Assembly (NCBI GenBank): GCA_965220415.1
Contig: OZ244829.1
Coordinates: forward strand, 2,217,209-2,281,208
DNA: 64,000 nucleotides
Direction: 5' to 3'
Source: Candidatus Poribacteria bacterium
Lineage (GTDB): Bacteria; Poribacteria; WGA-4E; JAJDTR01
Shown: one piece after another, positions 2,441-62,462 of the stretch
How the letters are laid out: each line of letters begins with the position of its first letter
How positions within the stretch are numbered: position 1 is the stretch's first letter
Notes under the pieces: generated by a model
Seen by the model: only the letters and a program-made list of their open reading frames with translations
Database searches by the model: none
What the model was told of the DNA's origin: nothing
Program-made: the position numbers and the translations under genes

Positions 2441-3214
2441 ATTACATATTCTTATCTTCCGCATTATCGATCGCCTAAAAGTTAAATTTCTCAATTGGCC
2501 GTATCCCGCATCATAATTGAAAGCATGCCATTATCCCTGACGGAAGAATTCTTTCAGCAAGCAACACTTACTAGTCAGAGTCCCTTTCCTCGATCCAGAG
2601 GATCGAAATGTCAATAGAACGCGACATGTCCAGAGTCCCGCGCTCCAGAGGAGCGCCATGTGGTGTGTTACTTCGTAAAAATGAAGTTGATGATGAAAGG
2701 GCAAAACAGGTCAATCAATCGGACTCAGGGTAGTACCTTGGTGATTTTTTCTCGTTTGTAAATATATACCCCAAGGTCTGCTATGTGACAATTCGAGATT
2801 ACACAAGTCTATTATGCGGAAGATGAGATATTTGGCGCCTTTAGCAATATTGTCGTTTATCTGCCGTAAAGGTAGCGCTAATGATTACAGTAATTTAGAG
2901 GAAAACCATCTGGCAAGGGAACTCTTCGAGACTTCGAAATTGGCCGACAGGAGTCATCAAGGCATAGCCAAACTGTTTGCCAACAGTTCGCCGCCCATCA
3001 AGAGATGCCGGGGCCAGCCATTGACTCAGGACGCGGAGCAATTCAACCAACAGTTGACGCCACACAGGGCTGCCATTGAAGGTGCAAAGTTTTTTTGGAT
3101 CGCCAATGACGGCTATTAAAGCAAGCAACATGATTATTATAATTGCCAAGATTTCTGTACCTACACAGGTCTATATCGGAAAATTATCTAATTCCGTACC
3201 AAGGAGGATACCCA

Positions 3215-3946
3215 ATGTTAGAAACTAGAGACCTAACCAAAGTCTATGACAACACAATTCGAGCTGTCAACGAATTGAACTTGAAGATCGAACGGGGAGA
3301 AATCTACGTCATACTCGGTGCGAATGGTGCTGGGAAAAGCACCACCATCTCCATGCTCCTGAATTTCATTGACCCAACCAGTGGCACGGCGTTAGTCAAT
3401 GATATTGAGATTCCAAAGTTTCCACTCGAAGCGAAGAAGCATCTCGCTTACGTATCGGAAAACGTGGAGTTGTATCGAAACTTTACCGCACGACAGAACC
3501 TTGAGTTTTTCACCAAGCTGGGAGGCAAAAAGAAAGTGACTCGCGATGAACTGGATGCGACACTTGCTCGTGTCGGGTTGCCGGAAGAATCATTTAAACG
3601 TCGGGTGAAAACCTTTTCCAAAGGGATGCGACAGCGATTGGGAATCGCGGTAGCCATCATGAAGGGCGCCGATGCGATACTGCTTGATGAACCCACCTCT
3701 GGACTAGACCCAAAGGGTGGGGCGGACTTCCTGAACCTTTTGCGCGAACTGAGGAGTGAAGGCAAAGCCATCTTCATGTCTACCCACGACATATTTCGTG
3801 CCAAGGAAATCGCTGATCGGCTTGGGATTCTTGTGAGTGGAAATCTGGTTCGCGAGCTATCCCGTCAAGAGATTGAAACCGAAGATCTGGAAGCCCTATA
3901 CCTGCGTTATGTGGCGGGGTACGAATCGGAAGAGGAAGTAGCATAA
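3215..3946 (+). CDS. ABC transporter ATP-binding protein (ABC-2 type, no fused permease)
   Basis: Walker A GANGAGKST, signature/Q-loop region, Walker B ILLDEPTSGLD and an H-loop are present. AGGAGG RBS lies 8 nt before the ATG at 3215 (the ORF track start at 3143 is an upstream extension). Confidence 0.85.
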   Translation: MLETRDLTKVYDNTIRAVNELNLKIERGEIYVILGANGAGKSTTISMLLNFIDPTSGTALVNDIEIPKFPLEAKKHLAYVSENVELYRNFTARQNLEFFTKLGGKKKVTRDELDATLARVGLPEESFKRRVKTFSKGMRQRLGIAVAIMKGADAILLDEPTSGLDPKGGADFLNLLRELRSEGKAIFMSTHDIFRAKEIADRLGILVSGNLVRELSRQEIETEDLEALYLRYVAGYESEEEVA

Positions 3947-4052
3947 ACGGCAATATCGCCTCCTACTCTTTCTCCACTTCCCCCTTTGCGTTCTGTCGCA
4001 ATATAGCAAGACAGTTGGTAGGATAACCCTGTCATTTATCTGTTCTTGCCCG

Positions 4053-6392
4053 ATGTTGTTAAAGGAGAAACTCTACGTGCGAAGTATATACCTCTTATTG
4101 ATACTCAGTTTGATGTTTCTATCGGGTCATGAGCCGCTCCGGTCACAAGTGGTGGACTCGCGAGATGCGTCGCAATCTGAAAAGGCGCGCACCAAAGATG
4201 AACAGTTGCGCCAGATTCAAATCGACAAAGCCAAACTGGACATGGAACTGGCGAAAAAACTGATGGAGAAAAAAGAGGATGAGCTTAAGAACCTAAAGAA
4301 TATGCTCCAAGAAGCGAATAACATCGTGACAGTTCTAGAGGTGAACCGTGCGGAGGAGGAATACGAGCTCGCAAAGGCAAACTATGAGAACGCGAAACTC
4401 GACTTGCAAAACACCGAACTTGATTCGCTGAAGGCGGCTTGGCACATCACCATCTTGGGGACCCGGCGATATGAAGCACGAGATGGCAGGGAGATGTTCT
4501 CTATCACGTTAAAAAACAGCTCGCTGCCGGTCAAATTGGAGGAGAGCTCTCGGGTTCTTGAAAGGGATGTTATCATCAGCGCGCAGATTGACGACATCTA
4601 TGTCTCAATTAAAGACCAAGGAGACTTCGGACGGCAAGGTGCTATCGTAGCCACTCCTTACGAGGTACGTATTCCATCGCTGAAGGAGGGTGAGGAGAAA
4701 ACACTGGAGTTTGAACTGGTCAAGGATGAAGTGCAGGACGTGGTCGTTAGCCTAAAATATCTTGATCTTGAGGAGGACCGCAATATCCATCTCAAGCAGG
4801 AGGAACCCTACATCTCGGTGCTGTCTGCGCGGCGGTACAAGGAGGGAGATCGAAGGAGGCTTGAGATTGTCCTCAAATACGGAGCGATTCTGGATCGTTC
4901 CGTGCCCCCATCCAAGCGGGACATTGACGATCTGCCTGCCGCTCCGGATGAAAGGGCGACATACGGTGCCGCACAAGAGATCAACAATGTCTACGTCTCA
5001 ATTAAGGATGAAAAGGATGCGATTATCGGCGTACCGTATGAGATTCGAATTCCGAACCTCAAGGATCAACAGTCGAAAACCCTCGATTTTGAACTCCGCC
5101 GCAACGTGGACAGCATTATCGTGAGCTTGAGGTATCTGGAACAGTCCTATCCCTACAAGATTCATCTTGAGGAGGACACCCGCCACATCTCAATCACCAG
5201 CGCCAAGAAGTATCGTGAGAACAATCAGATAATGGTCACTATCCGCTTGAAGAACACCTCGACGACTGAGTCCATGCCCGTTGACGCAACCGTGGAAGAA
5301 ATCGCCGCCGCCAACGAGATTCGTTCTATTTTTGTTTCCCTCAAAGACATTGACCCAACTAGTGGGACTCAATCGACGAATATTGCCCAACCTTATGAGC
5401 AGAAGATACCGCTGCTTGGCTACAATGACGAAGTCGACCTGACGTTCCAACTCCAGAAGGATGTGGACTCAATCATGATCGCATTGAAATACCCCGATCT
5501 TGTTGAGACGGACAATCGTTTGGTTTATTTACAGAAGGAGTCGGAGGAGGATGTGGTCAATGTCAGTTCGCTGCAGTTCTCCCAAGAGGGCAATCTCGGA
5601 AGTTCCGTTACCTATGATATGACACTGGATCGGTTAGCGGAGACGGAGAATACTTTCCAGTTGCGGATTATCAATCTTCTCAATAGCTTGACTTTTGAAT
5701 TTCAGGATACCGAGAGCCAATCGCGCGTGTCACAGGTGAAATTCACACAGGCGCAATCCAAACGAGATCTATCACTTTTCGTCCACGTGACCGAAGAGCT
5801 CGATGCCTCCTATCTTGACAGGACGCTGGAATTTTACGTTGCCGTCATTGATGCAAATGAGGCGCAACAACTCGGCGGCGTGAACAATCGTCTAGAGCTA
5901 TCCCCGGAGCAGATTAGCCAGATTAAGGGCGGTGTCGAGCGGTTTGAGCTTATCCCCAAAGGCGTGCCGGAGATTGAGCTATTTATCCCTAGTTCTTACC
6001 ATACCATCAAAATCGGGGAGCAGATAGACATGACATTGAAGTTACGAAATAGCGGCACGCGAGATTTAGCCGATATTCGGATGGGGGTCGATGTCTACAC
6101 CGGCTGGGACTATGTTGTTGAACCGGAAGTCGTCGCAAAGCTGGTACGGAATGAAGAGACCGAAGTACATCTGACGCTCATCCCATCTCCGGACGTGGGC
6201 GTCGGAGAGTACGAAGCGAAGGTCAATGCGGAGCTCACAGTTGATAATCGGCCCGTCGAGGCACGAGAAAAGACGGTCAGAGTTCACATCCAATCACAGC
6301 CTAGGCTCTCGGTAACAACGATTTTGTTTGGGGTGCTCGTTCTATTGGTCATTGGCATAGCGGTTGTCACCGTGCGGCTCAGTCGCCGATAG
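4053..6392 (+). CDS. Membrane-anchored coiled-coil protein with four ~115-aa internal repeats and C-terminal TM anchor; possible atypical membrane-fusion/adaptor protein
   Basis: N-terminal TM helix (SIYLLLILSLMFLSG), a long heptad-like coiled coil (residues ~40-130) as in HlyD-type adaptors, four repeats each containing [IV][FY]VS[IL]KD...PYE.[RK]IP.L..........[FL][EQ]L..(D/N)V(D/Q)S[IV].[IV][AS]L[KR]Y, a NEW3/CARDB-like beta region, and a C-terminal TM helix (TILFGVLVLLVIGIAVVTV). A GTG at 4077 with AAGGAG 7 nt upstream is an alternative start. Confidence 0.6.
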   Translation: MLLKEKLYVRSIYLLLILSLMFLSGHEPLRSQVVDSRDASQSEKARTKDEQLRQIQIDKAKLDMELAKKLMEKKEDELKNLKNMLQEANNIVTVLEVNRAEEEYELAKANYENAKLDLQNTELDSLKAAWHITILGTRRYEARDGREMFSITLKNSSLPVKLEESSRVLERDVIISAQIDDIYVSIKDQGDFGRQGAIVATPYEVRIPSLKEGEEKTLEFELVKDEVQDVVVSLKYLDLEEDRNIHLKQEEPYISVLSARRYKEGDRRRLEIVLKYGAILDRSVPPSKRDIDDLPAAPDERATYGAAQEINNVYVSIKDEKDAIIGVPYEIRIPNLKDQQSKTLDFELRRNVDSIIVSLRYLEQSYPYKIHLEEDTRHISITSAKKYRENNQIMVTIRLKNTSTTESMPVDATVEEIAAANEIRSIFVSLKDIDPTSGTQSTNIAQPYEQKIPLLGYNDEVDLTFQLQKDVDSIMIALKYPDLVETDNRLVYLQKESEEDVVNVSSLQFSQEGNLGSSVTYDMTLDRLAETENTFQLRIINLLNSLTFEFQDTESQSRVSQVKFTQAQSKRDLSLFVHVTEELDASYLDRTLEFYVAVIDANEAQQLGGVNNRLELSPEQISQIKGGVERFELIPKGVPEIELFIPSSYHTIKIGEQIDMTLKLRNSGTRDLADIRMGVDVYTGWDYVVEPEVVAKLVRNEETEVHLTLIPSPDVGVGEYEAKVNAELTVDNRPVEAREKTVRVHIQSQPRLSVTTILFGVLVLLVIGIAVVTVRLSRR

Positions 6393-6427: not shown

Positions 6428-7837
6428 ATGGGGGAAAAGTATCGTACATCGTGTATCGCGCGATACGCGCTGTGCCTCATGTACGGCGCATTCTGCGCGT
6501 GGATTTTGAATAGCGCCGAGCCGACTTTGGCGCAAGGCGAGGTAACACTGACGTTGGAGAAAGCGTCTCGACTCACGTTGAAGAACAATGAGAAAGTGCT
6601 TAAAGCGGAGAAAGTCCTGGAACGCGCACAGGCGAACCTGCAAACCGTCCGTTCTGTTTACCTTCCTCAAATAGGACTCACCGGATTTTATGAACGGCGG
6701 AAAAGTGACGACCATGACTTGGACGACAGGGATTACCTTTCCAGTTTTTCCCTCAGCCAAGTAATTGCGCGGTTTGGCGAAGTTCCACAAGACCTGGATC
6801 AGGCGCAAGAAGATGTGCGCAAGTCGGGCATTGAACTGAAAAGCGCCAAACAGGAGGTCATCTTCACTCTGAGAAGACTTTGGCACAACATAACATTGAC
6901 GGAAGAGGAGATTCAACAACGAAGTGTTATTGAGACTACATTGCAGGAAAAGCTCATAGTTGCCAAAAGGAAGCACACCGAAAAAAGAATACCCATCCTG
7001 AGTGTGTTGAACACGGAGTTGGAGTTGGCAGAGCAGCAGTTGGCGCTCAACGAATTGAGACGACGGCTGGATATTGACAAAGCGGAACTGGTTCGATTGA
7101 CAGGGCTGAACGCATTGGCGACCGTTCGTCTGTCCGGTGCCATACCGGATGATGACCTGTCGCTTGAACGCGCGGTAGAATTGGCGTTAACGAACCGAAC
7201 GGAACTTGAAGATTTCACTGGCGCGATAACTCGTCAGGAGAGACTGGTCAAGGAAACGTTTTGGGATCGAATCCCGGAACTTGACGCCGCTCTCCGCTAC
7301 CGCGATGCCCATCTGTTTTTGAGCCAGCAGGAACGGACATGGGATACGACTGCGGCATACGATTACCCTTTTCTCGAACGGAAAACAGATAATACCATCC
7401 CGATTGAAGGAATTCGCGACAATCGCGATGGCTGGGAGGTTCGCCTAAACTTCAATCTTTCCCTTTTCGACGGCGGGGCGACAGACGGGCGTCAGAAGGC
7501 AGAGCGCGCCGAATTGTCACGTCTCCAACTGGAACTCATCGATTTACAGAAGGGGATTAGAGTCGAGGTGCGCCGCGCCTATCGGGAAGTGGCGAATGCC
7601 AGAGAACGTATGGAGATTGAAGAAAAGCGCGTGCAAATCTTCGAGCAGCGGCTGCGGACGATTGAACGAGTTCTTGATGAAGGGCTGGACCTACCGAGCT
7701 ATCGCGGTTTGACGTTTGATGACGCTTTCCAAGCCCAAGCCGAGTTTACCGAAGCGCAGCGGGTGTTCTATCGCACACGCCGGGATTATGCGGCGGCAAA
7801 GGAGCAACTGCGTGAAGTGTTGGGATGGACAAATTGA
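6428..7837 (+). CDS. TolC-family outer-membrane efflux protein
   Basis: 469 aa with a signal-like N-terminus and two long alpha-helical repeat halves (LxxAxxNLxxV..., ELxxAExxL...) typical of the OEP/TolC family. It starts 35 bp after the preceding gene. Confidence 0.75.
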   Translation: MGEKYRTSCIARYALCLMYGAFCAWILNSAEPTLAQGEVTLTLEKASRLTLKNNEKVLKAEKVLERAQANLQTVRSVYLPQIGLTGFYERRKSDDHDLDDRDYLSSFSLSQVIARFGEVPQDLDQAQEDVRKSGIELKSAKQEVIFTLRRLWHNITLTEEEIQQRSVIETTLQEKLIVAKRKHTEKRIPILSVLNTELELAEQQLALNELRRRLDIDKAELVRLTGLNALATVRLSGAIPDDDLSLERAVELALTNRTELEDFTGAITRQERLVKETFWDRIPELDAALRYRDAHLFLSQQERTWDTTAAYDYPFLERKTDNTIPIEGIRDNRDGWEVRLNFNLSLFDGGATDGRQKAERAELSRLQLELIDLQKGIRVEVRRAYREVANARERMEIEEKRVQIFEQRLRTIERVLDEGLDLPSYRGLTFDDAFQAQAEFTEAQRVFYRTRRDYAAAKEQLREVLGWTN

Positions 7838-8028: not shown

Positions 8029-8200
8029 GATGTAGGTTGGGTTGAGCAGTCGACAGCCAAGTTTTATTCAGCTTGCAAGCACAGATAATCTTTTCGATGA
8101 CCCGTTGGGGTAAACAGATATAGCGAAACCCAACTATTGGAAGAAAAAATCGCTTCTGCATGTGATTTCTCTCGGTTTTCCGTTCAACCCAACCTACGCA
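8029..8200. repeat. MITE-like element, family 2 (19-bp TIR GATGTAGGTTGGGTTGAGC ... CGTTCAACCCAACCTACGCA)
   Basis: Terminal inverted repeats at 8029-8047 and 8181-8200. An internal GCGAAACCCAAC motif is shared with copies at 42889-43000 and 62188-62462. Confidence 0.55.
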
Positions 8201-8370
8201 CTGCTATCATAAATCGTAGATGGAGCTACAGGTATAACTCCTTGTAGGAGCAATCTCCCGACTGCGTTTCGTCTCGTCTTTCATTGTCACTCCCGGGCTA
8301 TATCGAAGCTGATGATGCTCCCACCGCCGTGAATTACATGCGATTGCCCTGTACCTCCCGATATTTTGAG

Positions 8371-8436: not shown

Positions 8437-9903
8437 TTGGAGAAAGCTGATATTGGACTCATCGGGTTGGCAGTGATGGGTGAAAATCTTGCCTTAAACA
8501 TCGAAAGCAAGGGCTATCGGGTCGCAGTCTTCAACCGCACGGTTTCAAAGGTGGAGAATTTCATTAACAGCCGAGCGCGGGGGAAGCATGTGGTTGGAAC
8601 GTACTCTATTGAGGAACTGATCAACGTGCTTTCCACACCGCGCAAGATTATCCTGATGGTCAAAGCCGGCGAACCGGTCGATCAATTCATTGAAATGTTG
8701 AGACCTCTGCTCTCCGATGGAGATCTCATCATTGATGGTGGCAACGCGAATTTCCCCGACACCATACGCCGACACGAGGCGCTTGCGGCGAGCGGTTTGC
8801 TCTTTATCGGGACAGGTATTTCCGGAGGCGAGGAAGGTGCACTGAAGGGACCTGCGATGATGCCGGGCGGGTCAAAGAAAGCATATACCTTGGTGGAACC
8901 AATTTTCACGAAAATCGCCGCCCAAATTGACGGAGTACCGTGTTGTTCATACATTGGTCCCAACGGCGCCGGGCACTACGTCAAAATGGTACATAACGGC
9001 ATCGAATACGGCGATATGCAACTCATCGGTGAAGCTTACGCGCTCATGAAACAGGCACTGGGGTTGAGCGCCGATGACATGCACCAGCTATTCAACGAAT
9101 GGAACCAAGGCGATCTGAACTCCTATCTCATCGAAATTACGGCAGACATCTTTACACAGTCAGATGCGTCCGGCGTACCGCTTGTGGACACTATCCTTGA
9201 TCAAGCGGGTCAGAAAGGCACGGGAAAATGGACAAGCACGTCGGCGCTAGACCTCGGCGTCTCGGCGGGAACAATCGCCGAAGCCGTTTTTGCACGATAC
9301 ATCTCCGCGATTAAGAACGAACGGGTTGAGGCGGCACAAGTTATCCAAGGTCCGAAAGGAAAATTCGAGGGGGACCCATTAACCTTCCTAGAAGCAATTC
9401 ATGATGCGCTTTACGCCGCCAAAATCTGCTCCTATGCACAAGGCTTTGCGTTAATGCACGAAGCAAGCCGCGAGTACGAATGGAATCTCAATCTCGGGAA
9501 GATAAGCTTAGGGTGGCGCGGGGGTTGTATTATCCGCGCTCGCTTTCTCCATCGAATCGCCGATGCCTACGAAAACAACCCGAATCTACCGAACCTGCTG
9601 CTGGATCCCTACTTCCGAGAAGTGATTGAATCAACGCAGGAGAACTGGCGCAACGTTGTATCGACCGCAACACAACTTGGAATTCCGATACCTGCTTTTA
9701 GCTCGGCGCTCGCCTACTTTGATAGCTATCGCAGTGCTCGGCTTCCGGCGAATCTTATCCAAGCGATGCGCGACTACTTCGGTGCGCACACCTATCACAA
9801 AATTGACCTGAACGGAAATCCGATTGTCGGGAACGATGGTGCGCCAACAGTTTTTCACACCGAATGGATGGTAGATGGAAGACCCGAGATCGTGGTTGAA
9901 TGA
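8437..9903 (+). CDS. gnd: 6-phosphogluconate dehydrogenase, decarboxylating
   Basis: N-terminal Rossmann motif [17 protein letters not shown], conserved GDLIIDGGN, and the C-terminal 6PGD domain. TTG start at 8437 with AGGAGG RBS upstream; 488 aa, typical length. Confidence 0.95.
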
Positions 9904-13062: not shown

Positions 13063-13644
13063 TTATTCTTTGCACCTCTCTATTTGCGTTGTTCGGTTAA
13101 CCGGGTTTTCCTCGTCCAACGCCCAGTTCCGCGGGTTGTTTTTGATATAGGTACGGATATCGTCCAATGATTCATCGTCACGGATGACATGGTCGTAAAA
13201 GGAGCGCTGCCACAATTTTGCATTAAATGGTTTCCAACCCTTTGTTTTGACGCCTTCGATATACAACCTGGTTGTCAACGATTTGAATCGGTGTACAACC
13301 TCAGACAAGGAAAATGTAGGGACAACCCCCCGTGGTTGTCCGTTTGGGTTGAAACGCGCTTCGTTTGGGACGGCACGGGGGCCGTCCCCTACAATGATAA
13401 TTATTCCGTGCAAATGATTAGGCATTATCTGGAATTGGTCTGTCCGTATACCGTGATAAAATATCGATAATTCATGCCAGGTTTTTGCCACCATTTTTCC
13501 TGCGGCATTTGGAATCATCTGACCATCAACGATTTTACCAAATAATTCCTTTCGATTTTGCGTGCAGATTGTCACAAAATAATATCCCGGCTGAGAATAA
13601 TCGTAATGCTGTAGCCGATTCGGTTTTCGGATTTGGTTATTCAT
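13063..13644 (-). CDS. IS200/IS605-like Y1 (HuH) transposase of the REP-associated (RAYT) type
   Basis: YYFVTICT N-terminal strand, HuH motif MPNHLHGII, and C-terminal WQRSFYDHVIRD...YIKNNP. Annotated from the internal ATG (MNNQIRKPNRLQHYDY...); a TTG at 13668 extends it by 8 aa. A REP-like hairpin module is translated in-frame between the HuH motif and the C-terminal half. Confidence 0.8.
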   Translation of the reverse strand: MNNQIRKPNRLQHYDYSQPGYYFVTICTQNRKELFGKIVDGQMIPNAAGKMVAKTWHELSIFYHGIRTDQFQIMPNHLHGIIIIVGDGPRAVPNEARFNPNGQPRGVVPTFSLSEVVHRFKSLTTRLYIEGVKTKGWKPFNAKLWQRSFYDHVIRDDESLDDIRTYIKNNPRNWALDEENPVNRTTQIERCKE

Positions 13645-14128
13645 AATCCGTGCGGATTGTAGGGACAACCCCCCTGTGGTTGTCCGTTGGGGTTAATACG
13701 TGCTTCATTCGGGACAGCACGGGGACCGTCCCCTACAATGACAATTATTCCGTGCAAATGGTCACAAAATAATATCCTGCATGGGGATAATCGTAATACT
13801 GTAACCGATTCGGTTTTCGGGTTGGTTATTCATAATCCGTGCGGATTGTAGGGACAACCCCCTGTGGTTGTCCGTTGGGGGTTGATACGTGCTTCATTCG
13901 GGACGGCACGGGGACCGTCCCCTACAATGACAACTATTCCGTGCAAATGATCACAAAATAGTATCCCGCATGGGGACAATCGTAACACTGTAGCCGATTC
14001 GGTTTTCCGGTTTGGTTATTCATAATTCGTGCGGATTGTAGGGACAACCCCCCGTGGTTGTCCGTTGGGGTTGATACGTACTTCATTCGGGACGGCACGG
14101 GGACCGTCCCCTACATTTCCTAAACCCC
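13315..14128. repeat. Tandem array (~3 units of ~190 bp plus a half unit) of RAYT 5'-end + GTAG-led paired GC-rich hairpins (REP-like)
   Basis: Units start at 13580, 13771 and 13961 and end at ~14125. Each carries TGTAGGGACAACCCCC(C)GTGGTTGTCCG (GTAG + GGACAACC/GGTTGTCC hairpin) and GGGACGGCACGGGGACCGTCCCC (second hairpin), followed by a copy of the first ~100 nt of the transposase ORF. Extra-genic copies carry a 1-bp deletion that frameshifts the N-terminal peptide. An additional hairpin module sits at 13315-13417 inside the gene. Confidence 0.8.
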
Positions 14129-19118: not shown

Positions 19119-22100
19119 CTACTTACCGATCAACATCTTGCGAGTTGCAGCGAAATCATCGGCGGTTAGGGTGTAAAAGTATACGCCACTGACAACACGC
19201 TCACCGACACTGTTGCGGCCATCCCAATACGCCGCAAGACTTCGTTCGGTGTAATAACTAGCTACCTGATACCCTAGATTCAAATGACGCACTAACGTAC
19301 CGTTGATGTCGTAAATCGAGATTTGTACCTCGGCATCATTGGCTAACCCGTACGGAATCCACGTCTCCGGGTTAAACGGATTTGGGTAGTTGGGAAAAAG
19401 CACAGTCTCTGCCGGGGTTAGAGTTGCCAGAAGATGCTCTAGGAAAAGAACGCCAAGCTGCAATGTGGCGTCCTTCAGATCAAGTTCTCTCGCTTGTGCC
19501 AACCACTCTCCCACGTCCGCTCTTGTAGGAGGGATCTCCAGGTTGCGACTCCAGGCTGAAGGCGCGGCGGCTGCGTTCCCAAGCGCACTCACCACCAACA
19601 CCAAATCAAGGATGTTCACTATTCCATCCCCGTTGACATCCGCGGGCAAATCTGCATCTTCGGTCCCGAGACCTGACGCCACCGAGACCAAATCCAAAAA
19701 ATTCACAACATCGTCCCTGTTTACATCCTCCAGGATAGGCGGCAATTCGGCGGTTGTTGTGGCGGTCTGGCTCTGCTGAATCCCTGTAACAGCCACTTCG
19801 ACGGTGTTCGTTCCTGGATTTGGGCCCAATGTGAGGGTACTCTCCGCCCGACCATCACTATCCGTCGTGGCACTGGTTACACTGAGTGTCCCACCGCCAC
19901 CGGTAACCGTGAAGGTGACCTGCACACCCGGTAAGGGTTCGCCGGATCGATCTGCCACGTATACGACAATCGGTCTGGGAAGCGCTTCACCGATGAACCC
20001 CTTTTGGTCGAATCCGGAGATTATCCAGAACGCCAAAGGCGTTCGGATGCCTCGGGCAGTAAACGTCTCTGTTCGCGTAATCCCCGCTACAGTCACGTCA
20101 ACGCTGTTCGTTCCCGGATCTGGTCCCAACGTTAGGATACTCTCCGCCCGACCATCGCTCTCCGTCATGACGCTTGTGGCGCTCAGCGTCCCACCGCCAG
20201 CGGTAACCGAGAACGTTACTTCGGCGCCCGGCATAGGTTCGTCAAACTGGTCTCGCACTTCCACGATAAACGGGTTTTCAAGCGCCTCACCGTACGGCCC
20301 CTCTTGGTCGTCTCCCGAGATTATCCCCAATGTCGTGGGAATCCTGATGCCTTGGGCAGTAAACGTCTGGTTCTCCTGAATCCCCGAAATGGACACGGTC
20401 ACTGTATTCGCTCCCGGATTGGATCCCAACGTGAGGGTACTCTCGGCTCTTCCGTTCGCATCAGTCGTAACGCTTGTGGCGCTCAGCGTCCCGCCGCCAC
20501 TGCTGACCGAGAACGTGACTTGAACACCAGCGAGGGGTTTATCCGACTGATCTCGCACCTCCACCACAAACGGGTTCGCAAGCGCCGAACCGGGCAGTCC
20601 CTGTTGGCCGCCGCCCGAGATTATCTCCAATGTCTTGGGAATTCTGATGCCTTGGGCAGTAAGCGTCTGCTTCTCCTGAAGTCCAGTAACGGACACAGTA
20701 ACTGTATTTGCTCCCGGATTGACTCCCAACGTCAAGGTACTCTCGGCTCGTCCGTTGGCGTCGGTGATTGCGGTGGTGGCACTCAGCGATCCACTGCCCG
20801 CGAGGACAGTAAAGCCCACAGTAATCCCTTCCATCGGAGCATCGTACTGATCGCGGACTTCAACCACAAACGGGTTCGCCAAAGCTTCACCTGTCAAACC
20901 GTTCTGATTATCTCCCGAGAAGATTGACAGAGCCGTTGGAATCGGTGGTGGGAGAACCGCTTCAGCACTAAAGACCGCTGTTTGGGAAAGACCTTCGACA
21001 CTCGCCTCGACGGTGTTCGTGCCGGGACTGCCTCCAAGCGTCAGCGTACTCTCGGCTCGTCCGTTGGCGTCGGTAATTGCGGTGGTGGCACTCAGCGATC
21101 CACTGCCCGCGAGGACAGTGAACCTCACAGTAATCCCTTCCATCGGGGCATCGTACTGATCGCGGACTTCAACCACAAACGGGTTCGCCAACGCTTCACC
21201 TGTCAAACCGTTCTGATTATCGCCGGATATACTCTTTTGGCTTGTCGGTTCTAACACAGGTGGTGTCGTCACTGGCGGATCGATTGTCGTTGGAGGTTGT
21301 GTTGTAATTTGTGGTTGCTGCAGTGACTCTTGTTGCTGCTGTTGTGACGATGGCGATGATTCTTGCTGCTGTTGTGACGATGGCGATGATTCTTGTCGCT
21401 GTTGTGACGGTGGCGATGGTTCTTGCTGTTGCTGTGACGATGGCGGTGGGGTACCAACTGTCGCGGTTCCGCTGGTAGATTTGGAGCCGACCGTCGCTGT
21501 GACCGTGTATGAACCGGAGGCGCTGTTCCCAAGTGTTAGTGTTGTGGAGGCCTGGCCGTTGCTGCCGGTTGTCGCACTTGTGGAATTCAACGACGCATTC
21601 CCATCGCCTGATGTGATACTAAACGTCACGGTTTTCCCTGACGCGGCACTCCCATCCTCCTGAACTTCAACAGTAAACGTCAATGCATCACCAGGGGCAC
21701 CAGATCCGGGACCACTTACCACACTTATCGATGATTCTGGCGGCGACTGCGGGGATGGGGTGCCAACTGTCGCGGTTCCGCTGGTAGATTCGGAGCCGAC
21801 CGCCGCTGTGACCGTGTATGAACCAGAGGCACCGCCCCGAAGTATCAGTAGCGTCTTTGCTCGTCCATTGCTATTAGTTGCTACATTTGTAGGATTTAGC
21901 AACACAGTCCCATCGTCTGGACTCAGGCTGAACGTCACGGTTTTCCCTGACGCGGGACTCCCATCCTCCTGAACCTCAACAGTAAACATTAGGCCCTGAC
22001 CGGGATTGCCAGATCCGGGACCACTTACCACACTTATCGATAATTGTGGTGTGTCAACCGTCGCTGTCCCGCTCGTAGATGTGCTGCCAACTGTCGCTGT

Positions 22101-37897: not shown

Positions 37898-40800
37898 CTA
37901 TCCACTGCCTGCGTCACGCAATCGTTCGATCCGCCTGCGTACCTCGTCCGCAATATTTCGGTAGTTTTCCCGCTTATTCGCTTTCGTCGCAGATTCTTCG
38001 GGGAAGCCGGGAGCGACCGGCTCCCCGAAAACGACACGAATTCTGCTTTTGCGCGGCAACGACTTGCCTTTGGGCAATGCTTCATAGGTGCCACTTACAT
38101 ACGCGGGCACGATAGGCACATTAGCTTCGTATGCAAGCAAACCGAGACCAGGCTTGAAAGGCTGGAGTTCCCCGTTCAGTGAGCGGGTACCTTCCGGATA
38201 GATGAGCAAGTTTTCGTCTCGAAGAAGCGCTTCCTGTGCAACGCGTAGGCTTTGGAGGGAATTATCCGTTCGATCGAACGGCAAGGCGTTGAGACACTGG
38301 CTAACAAACCACGCTTTCATTCGACTGTTGTAGAAGTAGTCTCTTGCACTAAGCGGACGTAATTTTCTTGATTCTACGCCTAGAGCGGTCATAATCGCCG
38401 GTGTATCGAGGTGGCTGCTGTGATTCGCCGCGATGATGTACGGTACTTCGGATGGGATGTGCTCTAATCCCCCGCACCGAAGCGAGAAGCGGCGCCGGAA
38501 AATCGTCCGAATGCCGAAGCGAATAAGTTTAGCCAAATGGCTCGGAGGCGAGTCGAGTTTCCCATGCTCCGCGGCGATCGAGGAACCAAGGGACGTATCC
38601 TCGGCATCCGGCGTGGCTTGCTGTGAGTCTAACGTGTTGACAACATCAATTACATCTCCGACAGTACGAATCCTTGCAGCGACCTCGTCCGGCACCTGTT
38701 TACCCAGTTTCGATTCAAGCAGCAACAGCAGTTCAACACGGGTCATCGAATCCAATCCGAGATCCGTGTCCAACGCGCTGTCCGCACGGATGCGATCCGG
38801 CGGAACGCGTGACAATCGCGTGAGTTCGCCGACAACCTCAGCTGCCCGGCTGCCCGGTTCCCACTCTCCAACAGCCACATCTGCCGAGGTTTCTTCGGCG
38901 GAAACAACGGGATGAGCCGCGTCTACCACTATCTGCTTGAACAGCAACGTCTTGACACGCGGACGGTCAATCTCGCCGTCAGGCGTTTTGGGCAAGTCCT
39001 CCTCCCAGAAATGTACCTTTTGGAGATTCTGATGCGTGGGGAGACTGCGTGCGCATGTTTGGAGATGTTTCTGAATCGATTCTTGGACTTCCTCCCGAGC
39101 GTCGCGCTCCGAGCAATTCGGCACAATTACTGTGTGTACTTCCTCTCCGAACGAGTCCGGCGTATCTAGTCCGACGACGCAAATCTCGGAAATATGGGGA
39201 CTATGTCGATACAGTTCCTCAAGTTCGACCGGATAGATATTTTTGCCGGTGCTGGCAATAATGACATCTTTTTTGCGCCCCGTAATAAAGAGGTAACCGT
39301 CATCATCAATATAACCGAGATCGCCGGTATAGAGCAAACCATCTCGAAGGACTTGTTGGGTCGCCGCCGGATTCCGATAGTATCCGGCCATGGTGCTCGG
39401 ACTCTTCGTGACAATTTCGCCAATTCCGCTGGCGTCCGGATTTTCAATCTGGAACTCCACCTCATTTACCGGCAGTCCGACGGAACCGGCTTTGCTCTTC
39501 TCCGCAGGATTCACGCTTAACACGGGCGCCGTTTCCGTCATGCCGTAACCTTCAAGGATTGTGAAACCAAAACGCTTGAATCCGTCGTAAACCTGACGAG
39601 GCAAGGCGGCACCGCCGCTTATAAGGACGCGGATCTGTCCTCCTAATGCCTTCTTAACGTGTTCAATCACGGCTGAATCATCCGACTCGTCCGTTTCAAT
39701 CGGGGTTTTCAGCACATACCTCTCAATGGCGTCATAGAGCAATTTGTACAAGCGCGGAACCCCGATAATGGCGGTCGTTTCCGTTTCTCGCATGGATTCC
39801 AAGATCGCGGTTGGTTTGAATGTATTGATATAGGTGACAGTGGCGCCACCGTAGATAGCCATCAGAAAACTGCAGGAGAACCCTAGGGCATGATACAGCG
39901 GAAGAATTGCTAGGACACGATCTGTTTCGGCTGGGGGAAGTACCTGCGCGACAGCGTGGAGATTTGCCAGAAACCCCTTGTGAGACAACATCGCGCCCCT
40001 CGGATCTACGGTGGTACCCATTGTGAAAATGATCGAGGCGGTTGCCTCTGGCTGGATTTCTACGATTGGAAAATCGGCAGGAATTTCATCAGTGGAAGAC
40101 ACAACTCCCTCGGCGCCCGAAGGTGCGCAGAGCTGATTCAGATTCAATACGTCCAGCTTTTCCCTTTCGTCGGAGATAGAGTGCAGTTGTTTAAAAAGGG
40201 ACTCAGACGCGATAACCACTTTTGCCTCCGTAAAGTCGGCAAGCGCCATCACTTCGAATCTAGCGGTCTGCGGATCGATAGGCACTACAATGGCACCGAT
40301 CTGGATGGCGGCTAGGTAGGTGATTCCCCACTCGGGTTGATTCTCGGAAATGAGAATCACCTTATCGTCTTTGCGATAGCCACGTTTCCAAAACGCAAAC
40401 GCGATCTGTCGCGATACATCATAAACTTGACGGTAGGAATACCGTACCCACTCCCCGCCTCGTTCAATCTGCAAGGCTGTATTATCCGAGTGCGCCTCGG
40501 CTTGTCGCTCAACGAGATCCAAAATCGTCTGACAGTCCTGTATTGAGCCCTTTTCCTGCGGGCAAGCATCGTGGCGTACCGCATTTGAACGCTCAACTTC
40601 TATGAGCGTTTTCACCGACGGATCGGCATCCATTTTAAGAATGAACCGCTTGATTCCCGGAATATGGATATTCTGGAGATAGTGTTGCCAGTCGAATTGG
40701 GAGATATTGAGGTCGAAGCGGCGCTGATCGACTGAGGTCAGCGATGCGAACAGTTGTCCAATCTTGGAGGTTTCAAACTCGAAGTTGAGGCGCGTATACG

Positions 40801-42637: not shown

Positions 42638-43048
42638 CAGGGGAAACGCATCTATACTCCACGCTGCTGAGAATTGCTTATTTTGTAGGAGCGATCTCCG
42701 AATCGCGACCTCTTTAAATCTTTGGTAGCCCCAGAGGGATCAAACGAGTGGATAACGAGGGCGATAGTAAATCCCGTGCGATAGAGATTTTACAGGTGTA
42801 CAACAATTCACGGCAGAAACATGAAAAACTACTCCTCATATGACAAAAAATGGGATTGGCACCTATTATTCAATCAGGCTCTAAGGATCGTAGGTTGGGT
42901 TGAACGAAATTCGTTAATGATCGTTAATCTTAGAGACGTTTCCGAGTCCCCACTTTGCATGAACATACCGAAAATATGAGTGAAACCCAACATTAATCGT
43001 AAATTCTACCGCCATGAGACATCCTCTAAATTAGATGCGTTTCCCCTG
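42638..43048. mobile_element. Composite non-autonomous element with perfect 16-bp TIRs (CAGGGGAAACGCATCT / AGATGCGTTTCCCCTG) and 10-bp target-site duplication GGTGGGATAG
   Basis: Direct repeat GGTGGGATAG at 42628-42637 and 43049-43058 immediately flanks the inverted repeats at 42638-42653 and 43033-43048. The interior carries a family-1 MITE copy (42654-42790) and a truncated family-2 copy (42889-43000). Confidence 0.6.
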
Positions 43049-43185
43049 GGTGGGATAGTCCTTGAGATTACCTCGGCAGTACGATATAATTGAATCGCTT
43101 GGGCATTAGGCTCAGAGTATTCCACCGTGTGAATGACACTCAAAGATAGGGATTGAATTTCGAAATCGGGAAAACGAATCCGAAA

Positions 43186-43713
43186 ATGTCAGAGTTTCCA
43201 CTCCGAAATCTAGAATTCAAGGCGGCAGCCGAGTCGCTCGAGTCCCTACGCGCGAACCTTAATGCACTTGAAGCGGAATGTTCGGGTAGGCTGTATCAGG
43301 TCGATACCTATTTTCATGTCCCAAAAGGGAGATTGAAACTGCGTGAAGTCGAAGATTACGCGGCGACACTAGTCTACTATGAGCGTCCGGACGCAGCAGA
43401 ATCGCGGTACAGCCACTACCAACTATGTGATATTGCGGACTGCGCGAAGTTTAAACAGATGATGTCTGACGCTCTTGGCGTGAAGGTAATCGTCAAGAAG
43501 AACCGTGAGTTATGGATTTACGGAAACACACGGATTCATCTAGATGAGGTTCTCGACCTCGGCGAGTTCGTTGAACTGGAAACCGTGATGCGAAATCAGA
43601 GCGAAACAGAGGCGCAAGCGGAACACAATCGTCTCAAGGCAACACTTCACATTGCGGCTGCCGACTTGATTCCGGTTTCCTATAGCGATCTGCTGTTAAA
43701 AAGCAACTCGTAA
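43186..43713 (+). CDS. CYTH-domain protein (class IV adenylyl cyclase/CyaB-like triphosphate tunnel metalloenzyme)
   Basis: N-terminal E-x-E-x-K (NLEFKAA), then YQVDTYF, GRLKLRE, YYER and the C-terminal NTRIHLDEV.DLGEFVELE motifs characteristic of CyaB/CYTH. ATG at 43186. Confidence 0.7.
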   Translation: MSEFPLRNLEFKAAAESLESLRANLNALEAECSGRLYQVDTYFHVPKGRLKLREVEDYAATLVYYERPDAAESRYSHYQLCDIADCAKFKQMMSDALGVKVIVKKNRELWIYGNTRIHLDEVLDLGEFVELETVMRNQSETEAQAEHNRLKATLHIAAADLIPVSYSDLLLKSNS

Positions 43714-61491: not shown

Positions 61492-61905
61492 GATATATCA
61501 AGGACGTGTTCTTATCCCGAGCCTATAGAAACAAACGCTACTGGAAACGGCGTGAATTCCCTCCAGTAAAGCCTATAGGGAGAAACTACACTTGACAGCG
61601 GTGGCAGTCTATGAGAGCATAGCGCTACTATTTTAGCAAACTTCCTTTCTCAATTCAGCCGCGCAAGAAGATGGGAAAATGACACTCCCCGCATAATTTA
61701 GTGTTACTAGAGAGGCGCGGCTATGGGAAGCCAATATGCCAGCCAATCAGCTTTTGCGGGAATGATATTTCGGTTCTTCGGACTCCCATGTGCCCTCTAA
61801 AAGATATACAAGGACGATTGTTATGGCGCAAACAGCAGAAGAGTTCGCCACCGGTTGATTCGAAACCAACTAAATCCAGCACGATTATTAAGGAGGCCCA
61901 AACTG

Positions 61906-62217
61906 ATGCAATCTTCTACGAAGGAATGGATAATTCAAACTATAGCACAACTACCTGAACCGGAGGCAAAACAGTTAAAAGACTACATCGAATTTCTTAC
62001 ATGGAAATCAATGCAAAAACGCAAGCCGGAAAACGGACAGAACCTAATAGCACAGAGCCTTATCAAAGCAATGGAAAATCCGCCACATCTCACCTATGAA
62101 GACGTTGAAGCGCTGCGTCGGTCCATTGAGGAAGGGAAGATGCCCGTAGATTTCGCTTCGCCCTTTGAGCCGGATGAACGTGAGAAGTGCGTAGGTTGGG
62201 TTGAACGGAAACCTTAA
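61906..62217 (+). CDS. Small hypothetical protein, DUF2281-like (LPEPEAKQLKDYIEFLTWK); 3' end reads into a MITE terminal repeat
   Basis: ATG lies 8 nt after AAGGAGG. The last 9 codons (EKCVGWVERKP*) are encoded by the left TIR GCGTAGGTTGGGTTGAACGG of the family-2 MITE. Confidence 0.4.
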   Translation: MQSSTKEWIIQTIAQLPEPEAKQLKDYIEFLTWKSMQKRKPENGQNLIAQSLIKAMENPPHLTYEDVEALRRSIEEGKMPVDFASPFEPDEREKCVGWVERKP

Positions 62218-62462
62218 TCAAATGCGGCGGGAAACTAGAAACCCTAGACTCACATGTTGTTTAATTCGCTAATACGCGAGTGAAACCCAACTTATTGTAA
62301 CATGCGCGTCGGATTGGTTGAAGCGTTGGGTTTCACTTTCTCCACCATAAGACAATGTTAATGTAAGGTGGATTCTATCCTAGTGTTCATGTGGATTCGT
62401 GTATGAGGGGACCTCTATCGCGGCCACTGTCCGTTCTCTTGATCGTTCAACCCAACTTACGC
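62188..62462. repeat. MITE-like element, family 2 (19-bp TIR GCGTAGGTTGGGTTGAACG / CGTTCAACCCAACTTACGC)
   Basis: TIRs at 62188-62206 and 62444-62462 with one mismatch; an internal 12-bp hairpin GTGAAACCCAAC...GTTGGGTTTCAC. Confidence 0.55.

What the first reader, a model, noticed from the sequence alone, without database searches (positions are those of the whole stretch)
8029..8200. Second MITE family with 19-bp GTAGGTTGGGTTGAAC terminal inverted repeats; one copy supplies the C-terminus of a small gene
There are three copies: 8029-8200 (between tolC and gnd), 62188-62462, and a truncated copy at 42889-43000. Each has nearly perfect 19-bp TIRs and an internal GTGAAACCCAAC hairpin. At 62188 the left TIR is translated as the last 9 codons of the DUF2281-like ORF 61906-62217 (EKCVGWVERKP*), so the insertion replaced or created that gene's 3' end.
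Basis: seen in the sequence. Interest (0 to 1): 0.5.

Follow-up and report, generated by a model that had tools for sequence, protein, structure and literature searches.

The report
REP-type palindromic repeats, not classic MITEs
The repeats are real. They are an unusual long-looped version of the well-known bacterial "REP" palindromic repeats, which are handled by RAYT tyrosine transposases, and one of them became the tail of a small antitoxin gene because the neighbouring toxin gene was deleted, not because the repeat jumped in.

Summary
The 16-mer GTAGGTTGGGTTGAAC occurs five times at the stated places, against 0.39 expected by chance, and GYGAAACCCAAC lies inside each copy.

The interpretation needs revising. 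The "TIR" is the head of a GTAG-tagged REP: GTAG, then the stem half GTTGGGTT. The "internal hairpin" is the other stem half, AACCCAAC. The same REP occurs in short form (GTAGGTTGGGTTGAGCGnAGCGAAACCCAAC) in cyanobacteria, Pseudomonas, Desulfobacterota and others. It directly flanks 11 RAYT (Y1/HUH) transposase genes that I retrieved, and a near-identical REP is published for the Coxiella RAYT.

In Poribacteria, the likely source phylum, each REP carries a variable insert of about 70 nt in its loop, which gives an almost fixed unit of 100-104 nt. Two units in inverted orientation make the 8032-8197 and 62191-62460 elements. The 42890 copy is a complete monomer, not a truncation. There are no target-site duplications, and the interiors are unrelated.

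The 9-codon REP tail of ORF 61906-62217 is real. Eighteen of the 20 homologues retrieved lack it, and nine of the ten full-length ones end ...EKQ/S. The syntenic locus of a related genome has a PIN toxin gene between this antitoxin gene and the same REP dimer, so a 651-bp deletion made the fusion.

The cognate RAYT in this genome was not found.

The parts
8032..8197 (.). REP dimer with the heads pointing outwards (166 nt), lying between the OEP/TolC-like gene (6428-7837) and gnd (8437-9903).
   Evidence: Heads are at 8032+ and 8182-8197 on the minus strand. The ends pair when folded as single-stranded DNA, z = -2.9. It aligns with the Poribacteria dimers.
8032..8134 (+). Long REP unit, 103 nt: GTAG GTTGGGTT GAGC, a loop of about 75 nt, then GCGA AACCCAAC.
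   Evidence: length 103, inside the 100-104 nt class.
8135..8197 (-). Right arm of dimer 1. This REP has a short loop and a decayed 3' stem half (GAAATCACAT where GAAACCCAAC is expected), followed by the spacer.
   Evidence: Alignment. One search found no inner AAACCCAAC for this arm.
62191..62460 (.). REP dimer with the heads pointing outwards (270 nt), lying between the small ORF and the convergent transglutaminase-like gene (62474-63949, minus strand).
   Evidence: In the DNA fold, z = -4.8, and both the outer stem and the inner 12-bp stem appear in the centroid structure. Orthologous dimers are in L122 (93% identity) and L119 3938-4129.
62191..62291 (+). Left long REP unit, 101 nt. Compared with L119 its loop holds an extra 44 nt flanked by GAAACCC direct repeats.
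62292..62324 (.). Spacer between the two REP units of dimer 2.
   Evidence: This spacer is conserved with L119: TAACATGCGCGTCG...
62325..62460 (-). Right REP unit, 136 nt, a length outlier. Its head is GTAAGTTGGGTTGAAC.
42890..42991 (+). Complete long REP monomer, 102 nt, in the divergent intergenic region between 37898-42226 (minus strand) and 43153-43713 (plus strand).
42888..43048 (+). A unit of about 160 nt (the REP monomer plus a 57-nt tail) that is conserved at a non-orthologous site in another Poribacteria genome.
   Evidence: It is 82-87% identical to L098 6221-6370. Both flanks and the neighbouring genes differ.
61906..62217 (+). Orphan antitoxin-like ORF (103 aa, weak DUF2281 match). 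Its last 9 codons and stop codon (62188-62217) are read from the REP head.
   Evidence: In related loci the homologues are paired with a PIN toxin gene (L119-L121, L213, L214).

Best explanation
The three loci are GTAG-tagged repetitive extragenic palindromes (REPs). Two of them are inverted REP doublets, which is the REPIN-like arrangement.

Each REP has four parts: the tetranucleotide GTAG; an 8-bp lower stem (GTTGGGTT pairing with AACCCAAC); a GA/GA mismatch; and a 2-bp upper stem. In this lineage, Candidatus Poribacteria, the apical loop has been expanded by a poorly conserved insert of about 70 nt.

Elements of this kind are recognised as folded single-stranded DNA by a REP-associated tyrosine (Y1/HUH) transposase, RAYT or TnpAREP. 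The enzyme reads the GTAG and the lower stem with its bulge, cuts at a nearby CT, and rejoins the strands. It leaves no target-site duplication.

**Shown here**
- The anatomy of the elements.
- The cross-phylum family they belong to.
- The physical association of this REP class with RAYT genes.
- The absence of target-site duplications.
- The presence of related copies at non-orthologous sites.

**Inferred**
- That a RAYT moves, or once moved, the Poribacteria long-loop version.

The small ORF is an antitoxin gene whose PIN toxin partner was removed by a 651-bp deletion. The deletion ends 2-3 nt before the GTAG of a REP dimer that was already there, so the reading frame now runs 9 codons into the REP.
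For: **1. The short canonical form exists.** A scan of one genome per species for the 16-mer returned more than 117 stretches. In most non-Poribacteria hits the head is followed at once by its stem partner, as in GTAGGTTGGGTTGAGCGAAGCGAAACCCAAC. Such units often form inverted doublets 64-100 bp long (L024, L025, L070, L081, L013, L039).

**2. It is published.** Nunvar 2010, Table 1, gives the REP of the Coxiella burnetii RAYT as GTAGGTTGGGCTGAGCTTGCGAAGCCCAAC. Di Nocera 2013 describes GTAG families in several phyla, head-out dimers, and REPs inside genes.

**3. Direct RAYT link.** I retrieved 80 RAYT loci from metagenomes and four more from protein look-ups. Eleven of these RAYT genes are flanked by REPs of this class. 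Eight (L146, L167, L176, L190, L210, L211, L217, L218) have a forward copy 19-82 nt upstream and a reverse copy 33-250 nt downstream. L202 has the same arrangement at 147 and 78 nt. L195 and L199 have the nearest upstream copy in the reverse orientation. L218 carries GTAGGTTGGGTAGAACGAAGTGAAACCCAAC. A member of this clade, P0054, scores 218.6 bits on NCBIfam REP_Tyr_transpos (cut-off 80).

**4. Poribacteria architecture.** The dimers consist of block 1 GTAGGTTGGGTTGAACGG, about 70 nt, block 2 GAGTGAAACCCAAC, a spacer, block 3 GTTGGGTTTCRCT, about 75 nt, and block 4 CCGTTCAACCCAACCTAC. Thirty-three arms measure 100-104 nt.

**5. The insert sits where it should be tolerated.** It lies in the apical loop, the part that Corneloup 2021 found to have only a non-specific role for the E. 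coli enzyme. The GTAG, the bulge and the lower stem were required.

**6. No target-site duplication.** None was found at 23 dimers. The base before GTAG is always a pyrimidine.

**7. Dispersal.** The 42888-43048 unit recurs at a non-orthologous site in L098. L119 holds two related dimers.

**8. The gene fusion.** L119 reads CGCT|GCGTAGG at the right edge of the missing 651 bp. That is a CT dinucleotide, the cleavage site reported for TnpAREP.
Against: - **No cognate RAYT was found in Poribacteria.** There is none in the window or in about 35 Poribacteria loci, by phmmer and tblastn. Every named hit of the matching RAYT clade, and every locus of that clade I looked up, was cyanobacterial or otherwise outside Poribacteria.
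- **The one RAYT-like gene in the window belongs to a different REP class.** ORF 13063-13668 (minus strand) is tied to GTAGGGACAACC.../GTAGGGGACGG... REPs, both here and in its homologues.
- **The units are too long to fit the definition.** At 100-104 nt they fall far outside the 20-40 nt that defines REPs. As single strands the monomers show no significant fold beyond the 8-bp stem: for 42886-43050, z = +0.86.
- **The window copies are not near-identical to each other**, so recent transposition within this genome is not shown.
- **Dimer 2 is old.** It sits at the same place in genomes that are 80-87% identical, so it has been inherited vertically.
Confidence: 0.78

Rival explanations
1. These are classical MITEs: deletion derivatives of a DDE-transposase insertion sequence, moved in trans by cut-and-paste through binding of the terminal inverted repeats.
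For: - The elements are 166-270 nt, non-coding, and have 16-19 bp inverted ends.
- They are dispersed in many genomes.
Against: - No target-site duplication at 23 elements.
- The ends are GTAG-REP heads whose partner half-stems lie inside the element at fixed offsets.
- Monomers with a single head exist (42890, L098, L095).
- No insertion sequence with these ends occurs in the window or in any of the loci held.
- The same sequence flanks RAYT genes.
Confidence: 0.05
2. These are immobile relics. The Poribacteria long-loop REPs descend from RAYT-mobilised REPs, but they are no longer transposed. They persist by vertical inheritance and are kept, if at all, for a host function such as a protein-binding site, mRNA 3'-end stabilisation, or a landing site for IS110/IS1111-type elements.
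For: - Dimer 2 is at the same locus in L119, L122 and the window.
- The interiors are saturated with change: median identity 0.33.
- No cognate RAYT was found.
- An IS110-family transposase gene lies about 330 nt from a REP dimer in L119. IS1111 is reported to target the Coxiella GTAG REP.
- The four REP blocks and the unit length are conserved while the rest drifts.
Against: - Related units occur at non-orthologous sites in different genomes. Two related dimers lie 640 bp apart in L119. Both imply copying at some time.
- Conservation of exactly the features a RAYT reads (GTAG, lower stem, GA/GA bulge) is what continued mobilisation also predicts.
- No host function was tested.
Confidence: 0.15
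3. These are structured RNA or regulatory elements, such as a terminator, an mRNA stabiliser or a small RNA, rather than DNA-level mobile elements.
For: - REPs in E. coli and QMITEs in Coxiella are transcribed and affect neighbouring genes.
- Dimers 1 and 2 lie downstream of genes.
Against: - No Rfam family matched the window at gathering thresholds. For seven canonical loci, a search at E-value up to 1 gave only sub-threshold microRNA-type hairpin matches.
- No intrinsic terminator was found.
- RNAalifold found no conserved interior structure and no covariation beyond the outer stem in 35 arms.
- The 42890 copy lies between divergent gene starts.
Confidence: 0.02

Closest known systems
GTAG-tagged REPs of the E. 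coli/Coxiella type with their RAYT (TnpAREP). Sources: Nunvar 2010; Di Nocera 2013, family GTAG-3 and the large-loop cyanobacterial GTAG-15; Corneloup 2021, group 2.
   Same: - 5' GTAG, then a 7-8 bp lower stem, an unpaired dinucleotide pair, and a GC-flanked short upper stem and loop.
- The Coxiella REP, GTAGGTTGGGCTGAGCTTGCGAAGCCCAAC, differs from the short form seen here at only a few positions.
- The class flanks RAYT genes.
- It forms head-out dimers, leaves no target duplication, and is occasionally read as protein.
   Different: - In Poribacteria the loop is about 70 nt, against 2-27 nt in published families. The unit is therefore 100-104 nt rather than 20-40 nt, and its length is nearly fixed.
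- The cognate RAYT was not identified in this phylum.
REPINs: REP doublets forming hairpins (Bertels & Rainey 2011).
   Same: Two inverted REPs separated by a spacer, which fold as one long hairpin. They are thought to be the unit a single-copy RAYT mobilises, and they are inherited vertically over long periods (abstracts).
   Different: - REPINs are about 70-110 nt and form populations of near-identical copies in a genome.
- Here the dimers are 166-270 nt with two large internal loops, and the copies in the window share only the REP blocks.
Coxiella burnetii QMITE2 (Wachter et al. 2018).
   Same: - It is a small element built around a GTAG REP, probably of this same class, that exists in a large and a small (pure REP) version.
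- It overlaps gene 3' ends.
- In strain Dugway an indel links enhC to the element, so that the element supplies the C-terminus. This is the same kind of event as at 62188.
   Different: - QMITE2 has the REP inside and separate TIRs of 17-31 bp, with direct repeats of 7-13 bp.
- Here the REP heads themselves are the termini and there are no direct repeats.
- I could not compare the QMITE2 sequence directly.
IS200/IS605-derived non-autonomous elements (PATE-like).
   Same: Y1/HUH single-strand chemistry, subterminal hairpins preceded by a guide tetranucleotide, and no target duplication (established knowledge).
   Different: Those elements have asymmetric left and right ends and insert 3' of a specific tetra- or pentanucleotide. 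Only the 42888-43048 unit has asymmetric ends. No TnpA or TnpB gene is associated.

Membership tests
GTAG-tagged REP | An unpaired GTAG (or GTRG) tetranucleotide directly 5' of the palindrome. | tested here: met
   All five heads read GTAG or GTAA followed by GTTGGGTT. The same holds in 35 aligned Poribacteria arms.
GTAG-tagged REP | A short (20-40 nt) imperfect palindrome that forms a stem-loop. | tested here: not met
   The stem halves GTTGGGTT and AACCCAAC are present, but they lie about 85 nt apart, so the unit is 101-136 nt. Short forms of 29-31 nt with the same stems exist in other genomes, including some Poribacteria (L035, L048, L049, L050).
GTAG-tagged REP | Many dispersed, mostly extragenic copies per genome. 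| tested here: inconclusive
   There are three loci in 64 kb, all intergenic apart from the 30-nt overlap with the ORF. Several loci per Poribacteria chromosome appeared in a truncated scan. The genome-wide count could not be obtained.
GTAG-tagged REP | The same REP class flanks a RAYT gene (a REPtron). | tested here: met
   Met for the class: 11 RAYT genes are flanked by GTAGGTTGGGT... REPs, and there is the Coxiella case. Not shown for the source genome.
REPIN | Two REPs in inverted orientation with a spacer, foldable into one hairpin. | tested here: met
   Both 8032-8197 and 62191-62460 fit. The outer and inner stems pair in the DNA folds.
REPIN | A population of near-identical copies within one genome. 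| tested here: not met
   The window copies share only about 26 nt plus 12 nt. Only 64 kb of the genome was available.
REPIN | A single-copy cognate RAYT in the same genome. | not testable with these tools
   Only 64 kb of the genome is held. The window's RAYT-like ORF, 13063-13668 on the minus strand, is tied to a different REP class.
Classical MITE (derived from a DDE insertion sequence) | Terminal inverted repeats and small non-coding size. | tested here: met
Classical MITE (derived from a DDE insertion sequence) | Target-site duplications flanking the TIRs. | tested here: not met
   At 23 dimers the mean best direct repeat is 1.26 nt, against 1.43 +/- 0.27 for shuffled pairings of flanks.
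Classical MITE (derived from a DDE insertion sequence) | A parent insertion sequence with the same TIRs. | tested here: inconclusive
   None occurs in the window or in the roughly 120 loci held, but no dedicated search of whole genomes was possible.
Coxiella QMITE2 | An internal GTAG REP with separate TIRs and direct repeats of 7-13 bp. | tested here: not met
   There are no direct repeats, and the REP heads are the termini.
Type II toxin-antitoxin pair (antitoxin plus PIN/VapC toxin), for ORF 61906-62217 | An antitoxin gene overlapping a downstream PIN toxin gene. | tested here: not met
   Met in homologous loci: L119-L121, L213 and L214 each show a 4-nt overlap. In the window, tblastn with the L119 PIN protein finds no remnant.

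The most novel reading that the evidence does not exclude
The Poribacteria 'long REP' would be a distinct, constrained element class and not merely a set of decayed REPs. It is a 100-104-nt unit in which only the RAYT-recognised foot is conserved: the GTAG, the 8-bp stem and the GA/GA bulge. The 70-nt A/C-rich interior is free to vary in sequence but not in length. That pattern would imply either a length-measuring constraint, such as a bound protein or a fixed geometry of the transposition complex, or a RAYT variant adapted to very large loops. Neither has been described for REPs.
Probability: 0.25. Interest if true: 0.6.

Novelty: new variant of a known kind. Interest (0 to 1): 0.4.

Why it matters
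- **Annotation.** What looks like a lineage-specific MITE is part of a REP class shared, almost base for base, by cyanobacteria, proteobacteria, Desulfobacterota, Chloroflexota and Poribacteria, and tied to one RAYT clade. Peptides such as VGWVER at protein ends or inside proteins are REP read-through and should be flagged.
- **REP biology.** The nearly fixed 101-nt unit with a free interior extends the known range of REP architecture. It matches the biochemical finding that the apical loop is not read by group-2 enzymes, and it offers a natural test of how much loop a RAYT tolerates.
- **Genome evolution in sponge symbionts.** The locus shows a toxin gene lost by a deletion that ends at a REP head, which leaves an orphan antitoxin with a REP-encoded tail. 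This is a concrete example of REPs as breakpoints for gene loss.

Tried and rejected
- **Rfam.** Nothing matched the window at gathering thresholds. For seven canonical loci, a search at E-value up to 1 gave only sub-threshold microRNA-type hairpin hits.
- **Literature search for the sequence.** The exact 14-mer is in no paper held. Shorter words led only to Nunvar 2010.
- **First searches for a RAYT.** My two regular expressions found nothing because they were too strict. phmmer with E. coli RayT also found nothing. tblastn with cyanobacterial-type RAYTs then found the window's divergent RAYT-like ORF.
- **RAYT homologues on plasmids.** All of them had other REP classes.
- **Search for a Poribacteria RAYT of the matching clade.** The 120 best hits, 10 cluster look-ups and 4 contig look-ups gave only cyanobacteria-like or low-GC loci.
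- **Empty site for dimer 1.** The only other contig with the same OEP protein, L123, is 100% identical. The exact gnd protein is not on record. L009 has gnd but not the same neighbourhood.
- **Conserved structure in the 70-nt loops.** None was found.
- **A-tract phasing.** There is a weak AA periodicity of about 9 nt, stronger than in shuffles (0.333 against a 95th percentile of 0.227). It is not the helical repeat, and I did not pursue it.
- **Integron attC sites.** I considered these because GTTGGGT and ACCCAAC fit GTTRRRY and RYYYAAC. I rejected them by inspection and from my own knowledge, without a test: the order of the two half-sites within a unit is the reverse of attC, the GTAG tag and the RAYT linkage explain the motif, and no integrase is nearby.
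- **A second Poribacteria REP class.** GTAGGTGCGGTTTCTAACCGCACC, seen in L009 and L016, has no copy in the window.

Full report
**1. Observation**

The sequence at the three stated places is as described. Allowing up to 3 mismatches, GTAGGTTGGGTTGAAC occurs at 8032+, 8182-, 42890+, 62191+ and 62445-. That is 5 matches against 0.39 expected, and no shuffle out of 100 reached 5. GYGAAACCCAAC occurs at 8123+, 42980+, 62280+ and 62325-.

ORF 61906-62217 has an AAGGAGG ribosome-binding site. It ends EKCVGWVERKP*, and the last nine codons and the stop lie in the repeat head. Its N-terminus gives a sub-threshold DUF2281 match (25.1 bits).

The flanking genes are an OEP/TolC-like gene and 6-phosphogluconate dehydrogenase for copy 1, and a PALP enzyme gene and a transglutaminase-like gene for copy 2.

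**2. What the repeat is**

The hits included many Candidatus Poribacteria MAGs and many cyanobacteria, and also Pseudomonas/Stutzerimonas, Moraxella, Neisseriales, Azospirillum, Gallionella/Sideroxydans, Desulfobacterota, Chloroflexota and Brocadia.

Outside Poribacteria the head is almost always followed at once by its complement, as in GTAG GTTGGGTT GAGCGAAGCGA AACCCAAC. These 29-31-nt units are often paired head-outwards at 64-100 bp. That is the anatomy of a GTAG-tagged REP and of a REP doublet.

Nunvar et al. 2010 list GTAGGTTGGGCTGAGCTTGCGAAGCCCAAC as the REP of the Coxiella burnetii RAYT. Di Nocera et al. 2013 describe GTAG REP families in Proteobacteria, Cyanobacteria, Chloroflexi and the PVC group. 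They also describe head-head, tail-tail and head-tail dimers, loops of variable size, and REPs inside genes.

The "internal hairpin" is the 3' stem half.

**3. Link to a transposase**

RAYT homologues on plasmids are flanked by GTAG REPs of other classes, which illustrates the general rule.

I then used an alignment of four RAYTs to fetch 80 RAYT loci from metagenomes. Seven of them (L146, L167, L176, L190, L195, L199, L202) are flanked by GTAGGTTGGGT... REPs. Four more came from protein look-ups: L210, L211, L217 and L218.

In eight of these eleven loci (L146, L167, L176, L190, L210, L211, L217, L218) a forward copy lies 19-82 nt upstream of the gene and a reverse copy 33-250 nt downstream. 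L202 has the same arrangement at 147 and 78 nt. In L195 and L199 the nearest upstream copy is in the reverse orientation.

L218 carries GTAGGTTGGGTAGAACGAAGTGAAACCCAAC. This is essentially blocks 1 and 2 of the window elements joined together.

A member of this clade, P0054, scores 218.6 bits on NCBIfam REP_Tyr_transpos, the model that also matches E. coli RayT (cut-off 80).

Sister REP classes differ by compensatory stem changes: GTAGGATGGGTT...AACCCATC and GTAGGGTGGGTT...AACCCACC.

**4. The Poribacteria version**

The window is from a Poribacteria genome. Three observations support this:
- Homologues of the small ORF are annotated as Candidatus Poribacteria.
- L119/L120 (GCA_028820655.1) is syntenic with the window at 80-87% nucleotide identity.
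- The RAYT-like locus is syntenic with a 6.5-Mb chromosome-scale contig.

In Poribacteria loci the two stem halves are separated. The dimers read:
- block 1, GTAGGTTGGGTTGAACGG;
- about 70 nt;
- block 2, GAGTGAAACCCAAC;
- a spacer of 22-50 nt;
- block 3, GTTGGGTTTCRCT;
- about 75 nt;
- block 4, CCGTTCAACCCAACCTAC.

The total is 224-270 nt.

I measured the distance from GTAG to the end of the first inner AAACCCAAC. Of the 52 arms that have an inner half, 33 are 100-104 nt long. The window arms are 103, 102 and 101 nt, with 62460- an outlier at 136 nt. Eleven arms are short REPs of 29-31 nt.

The interiors are barely alignable. Median pairwise identity is 0.33 and the maximum 0.86. They have no conserved secondary structure. 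Read from the head inwards they are A/C-rich: A 0.35, C 0.25, T 0.23, G 0.18, against about 0.25 each in the window. Subfamilies can be recognised across genomes.

The insert sits in the apical loop. The conserved parts are the GTAG, the 8-bp lower stem, the GA/GA mismatch and a 2-bp upper stem. For the E. coli group-2 enzyme, Corneloup et al. 2021 found the GTAG, the bulge and the lower stem to be required, while the loop and upper stem had only a non-specific role. This makes a large loop insert plausible. Why its length is so constant is unexplained.

**5. The three window loci**

*8032-8197.* This is a dimer. Its left arm is a 103-nt long REP. Its right arm has a short loop and a decayed 3' half, GAAATCACAT.

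*62191-62460.* This is a complete dimer. Both its outer and inner stems pair in the DNA fold, z = -4.8.

*42890-42991.* This is a complete monomer. The segment conserved with L098, another Poribacteria chromosome, runs from 42888 to 43048 at 82-87% identity. Both flanks and the neighbouring genes differ, so this unit of about 160 nt has been copied to non-orthologous sites.

The three loci share only about 26 nt of head (AGTGCGTAGGTTGGGTTGAACGGAAA between 8177-8202 and 62186-62211) plus the inner 12-mer.

There are no target-site duplications at 23 dimers. The base before GTAG is always C or T, and the base after CTAC is G or A in 22 of 23. That fits Y1/HUH single-strand chemistry and argues against a DDE-type MITE.

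No intrinsic terminator or promoter was detected in or beside dimers 1 and 2.

**6. The gene fusion**

Twenty homologues of the small ORF were found. Eighteen lack the VGWVERKP tail. Ten are full length: nine of them (95-97 aa) end ...EREKQ* or a close variant, and the tenth, P0001 (96% identical), shares the CVGWVERKP tail. The other ten are N-terminally shorter, and two of those (P0014, P0017) have C-terminal extensions of their own.

In the syntenic locus L119/L120 the order is:
- the PALP gene;
- the antitoxin gene (3001-3288);
- a PIN toxin gene (3285-3701, with a 4-nt overlap);
- a 136-nt duplicate of the PALP 3' end (3767-3902);
- a REP dimer (3938-4129) homologous to window dimer 2.

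Homology between the window and L119 stops at window 62188 (L119 3283) and resumes at the REP head. The window and L122 therefore lack 651 bp. No PIN remnant is left. Antitoxin-PIN pairs are also seen at L213 and L214, and another orphan antitoxin at L212.

The parsimonious reading is a deletion in the window lineage that fused the antitoxin frame to a REP already in place. The repeat did not insert into the gene.

The junction reads GAGAAG(T)GCGTAGG. L119 has CGCT|GCGTAGG at the right edge, which is a CT dinucleotide, the cleavage site reported for TnpAREP. That is compatible with a RAYT-made break, but it is only a one-locus coincidence.

The closest published parallel is Coxiella enhC. There, an indel links the gene to the REP-containing QMITE2, which then supplies the C-terminus.

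**7. What remains open**

The cognate RAYT of the GTTGGGTT class was not found in Poribacteria.

The window does encode a divergent RAYT-like Y1 protein at 13063-13668 on the minus strand. It scores 33.9 bits on Pfam Y1_Tnp and 58.9 bits on NCBIfam REP_Tyr_transpos, below that model's cut-off of 80.

Its associated repeats belong to another GTAG class: GTAGGGACAACCCCCCGTGGTTGTCC ... GGGACGGCACGGGGGCCGTCCCCTAC. One such dimer is inserted in frame in the gene, and it is conserved in the homologues L215 and L216.

I cannot tell from these data whether that enzyme, an unseen one, or none acts on the long REPs.

**8. Verdict**

The finding is real but ordinary in kind. These are REP/REPIN-type elements of a widespread, RAYT-linked class, not a new MITE family.

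Two aspects go beyond the textbook. One is the nearly fixed 101-nt long-loop architecture in Poribacteria. The other is the REP-bounded deletion that removed a toxin gene and re-tailed its antitoxin.

Noticed in passing
window 13063-13668 (minus strand) and 13316-14116: There is a RAYT-like Y1/HUH transposase ORF of 201 aa. It carries an in-frame dimer of a different GTAG REP class (GTAGGGACAACC... / GTAGGGGACGG...) at 13316-13392. Upstream is a tandem array (period 189 bp, 2.9 copies, 13561-14115) made of that dimer plus internally deleted 5' fragments of the gene. The gene is syntenic in another Poribacteria chromosome (L215), and the in-frame dimer is conserved in the homologues L215 and L216.
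   Followed up: partly
window 2514-2653: Another repeat, with two small palindromes that have CCAGAGG loops (TCGATCCAGAGGATCGA and GCGCTCCAGAGGAGCGC). It is 88-89% identical to two places in the Poribacteria locus L016 (1711-1765 and 2244-2375).
   Followed up: no
window 19214-19421: A 208-nt stretch is 74.5% identical to L107 6777-6984, in a different Poribacteria genome. I did not determine whether it is a gene or a repeat.
   Followed up: no
L119 3767-3902 (compare window 61359-61494): A 136-nt duplicate of the 3' end of the PALP gene lies downstream of the antitoxin-PIN pair. This suggests the toxin-antitoxin cassette entered between the PALP gene and the REP dimer, with a duplication of the gene end.
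   Followed up: no
L195 about 907-937 and L199 about 1765-1795: REPs of the GTTGGGT class are inserted in frame inside the RAYT genes themselves. They are translated as VGWVEGRNPT and VGWVEERNPT, the same VGWVE peptide as the tail of the window ORF. The unannotated ORFs window 42821-42979 and L098 6037-6294 also read through REP heads (IVGWVERN and VVGWVERN).
   Followed up: no
L030 113-764, L026 7719-7882, L066 2153-2332: In cyanobacteria (Symploca, Microcoleus) the same REP head occurs in head-to-tail tandem arrays with periods of 106, 74 and 41 bp.
   Followed up: no
L119 4776-4937 and 5264-6288: A second REP dimer lies about 330 nt upstream of an IS110-family (DEDD) transposase gene. IS1111, from the same family, is reported to target the Coxiella GTAG REP.
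   Followed up: no
window 62248-62291 compared with L119 3980-3994: The left loop of dimer 2 holds 44 extra nt relative to L119, bounded by GAAACCC direct repeats. This looks like a slippage-type indel. It brings the arm from 57 nt in L119 to 101 nt in the window.
   Followed up: partly
35 Poribacteria long-REP interiors (window 8050-8120, 42908-42977 and 62209-62277, plus loci L009-L119): Read from the head inwards the interiors are A/C-rich (A 0.35, G 0.18). They show a weak AA periodicity of about 9 nt, above shuffled controls.
   Followed up: partly
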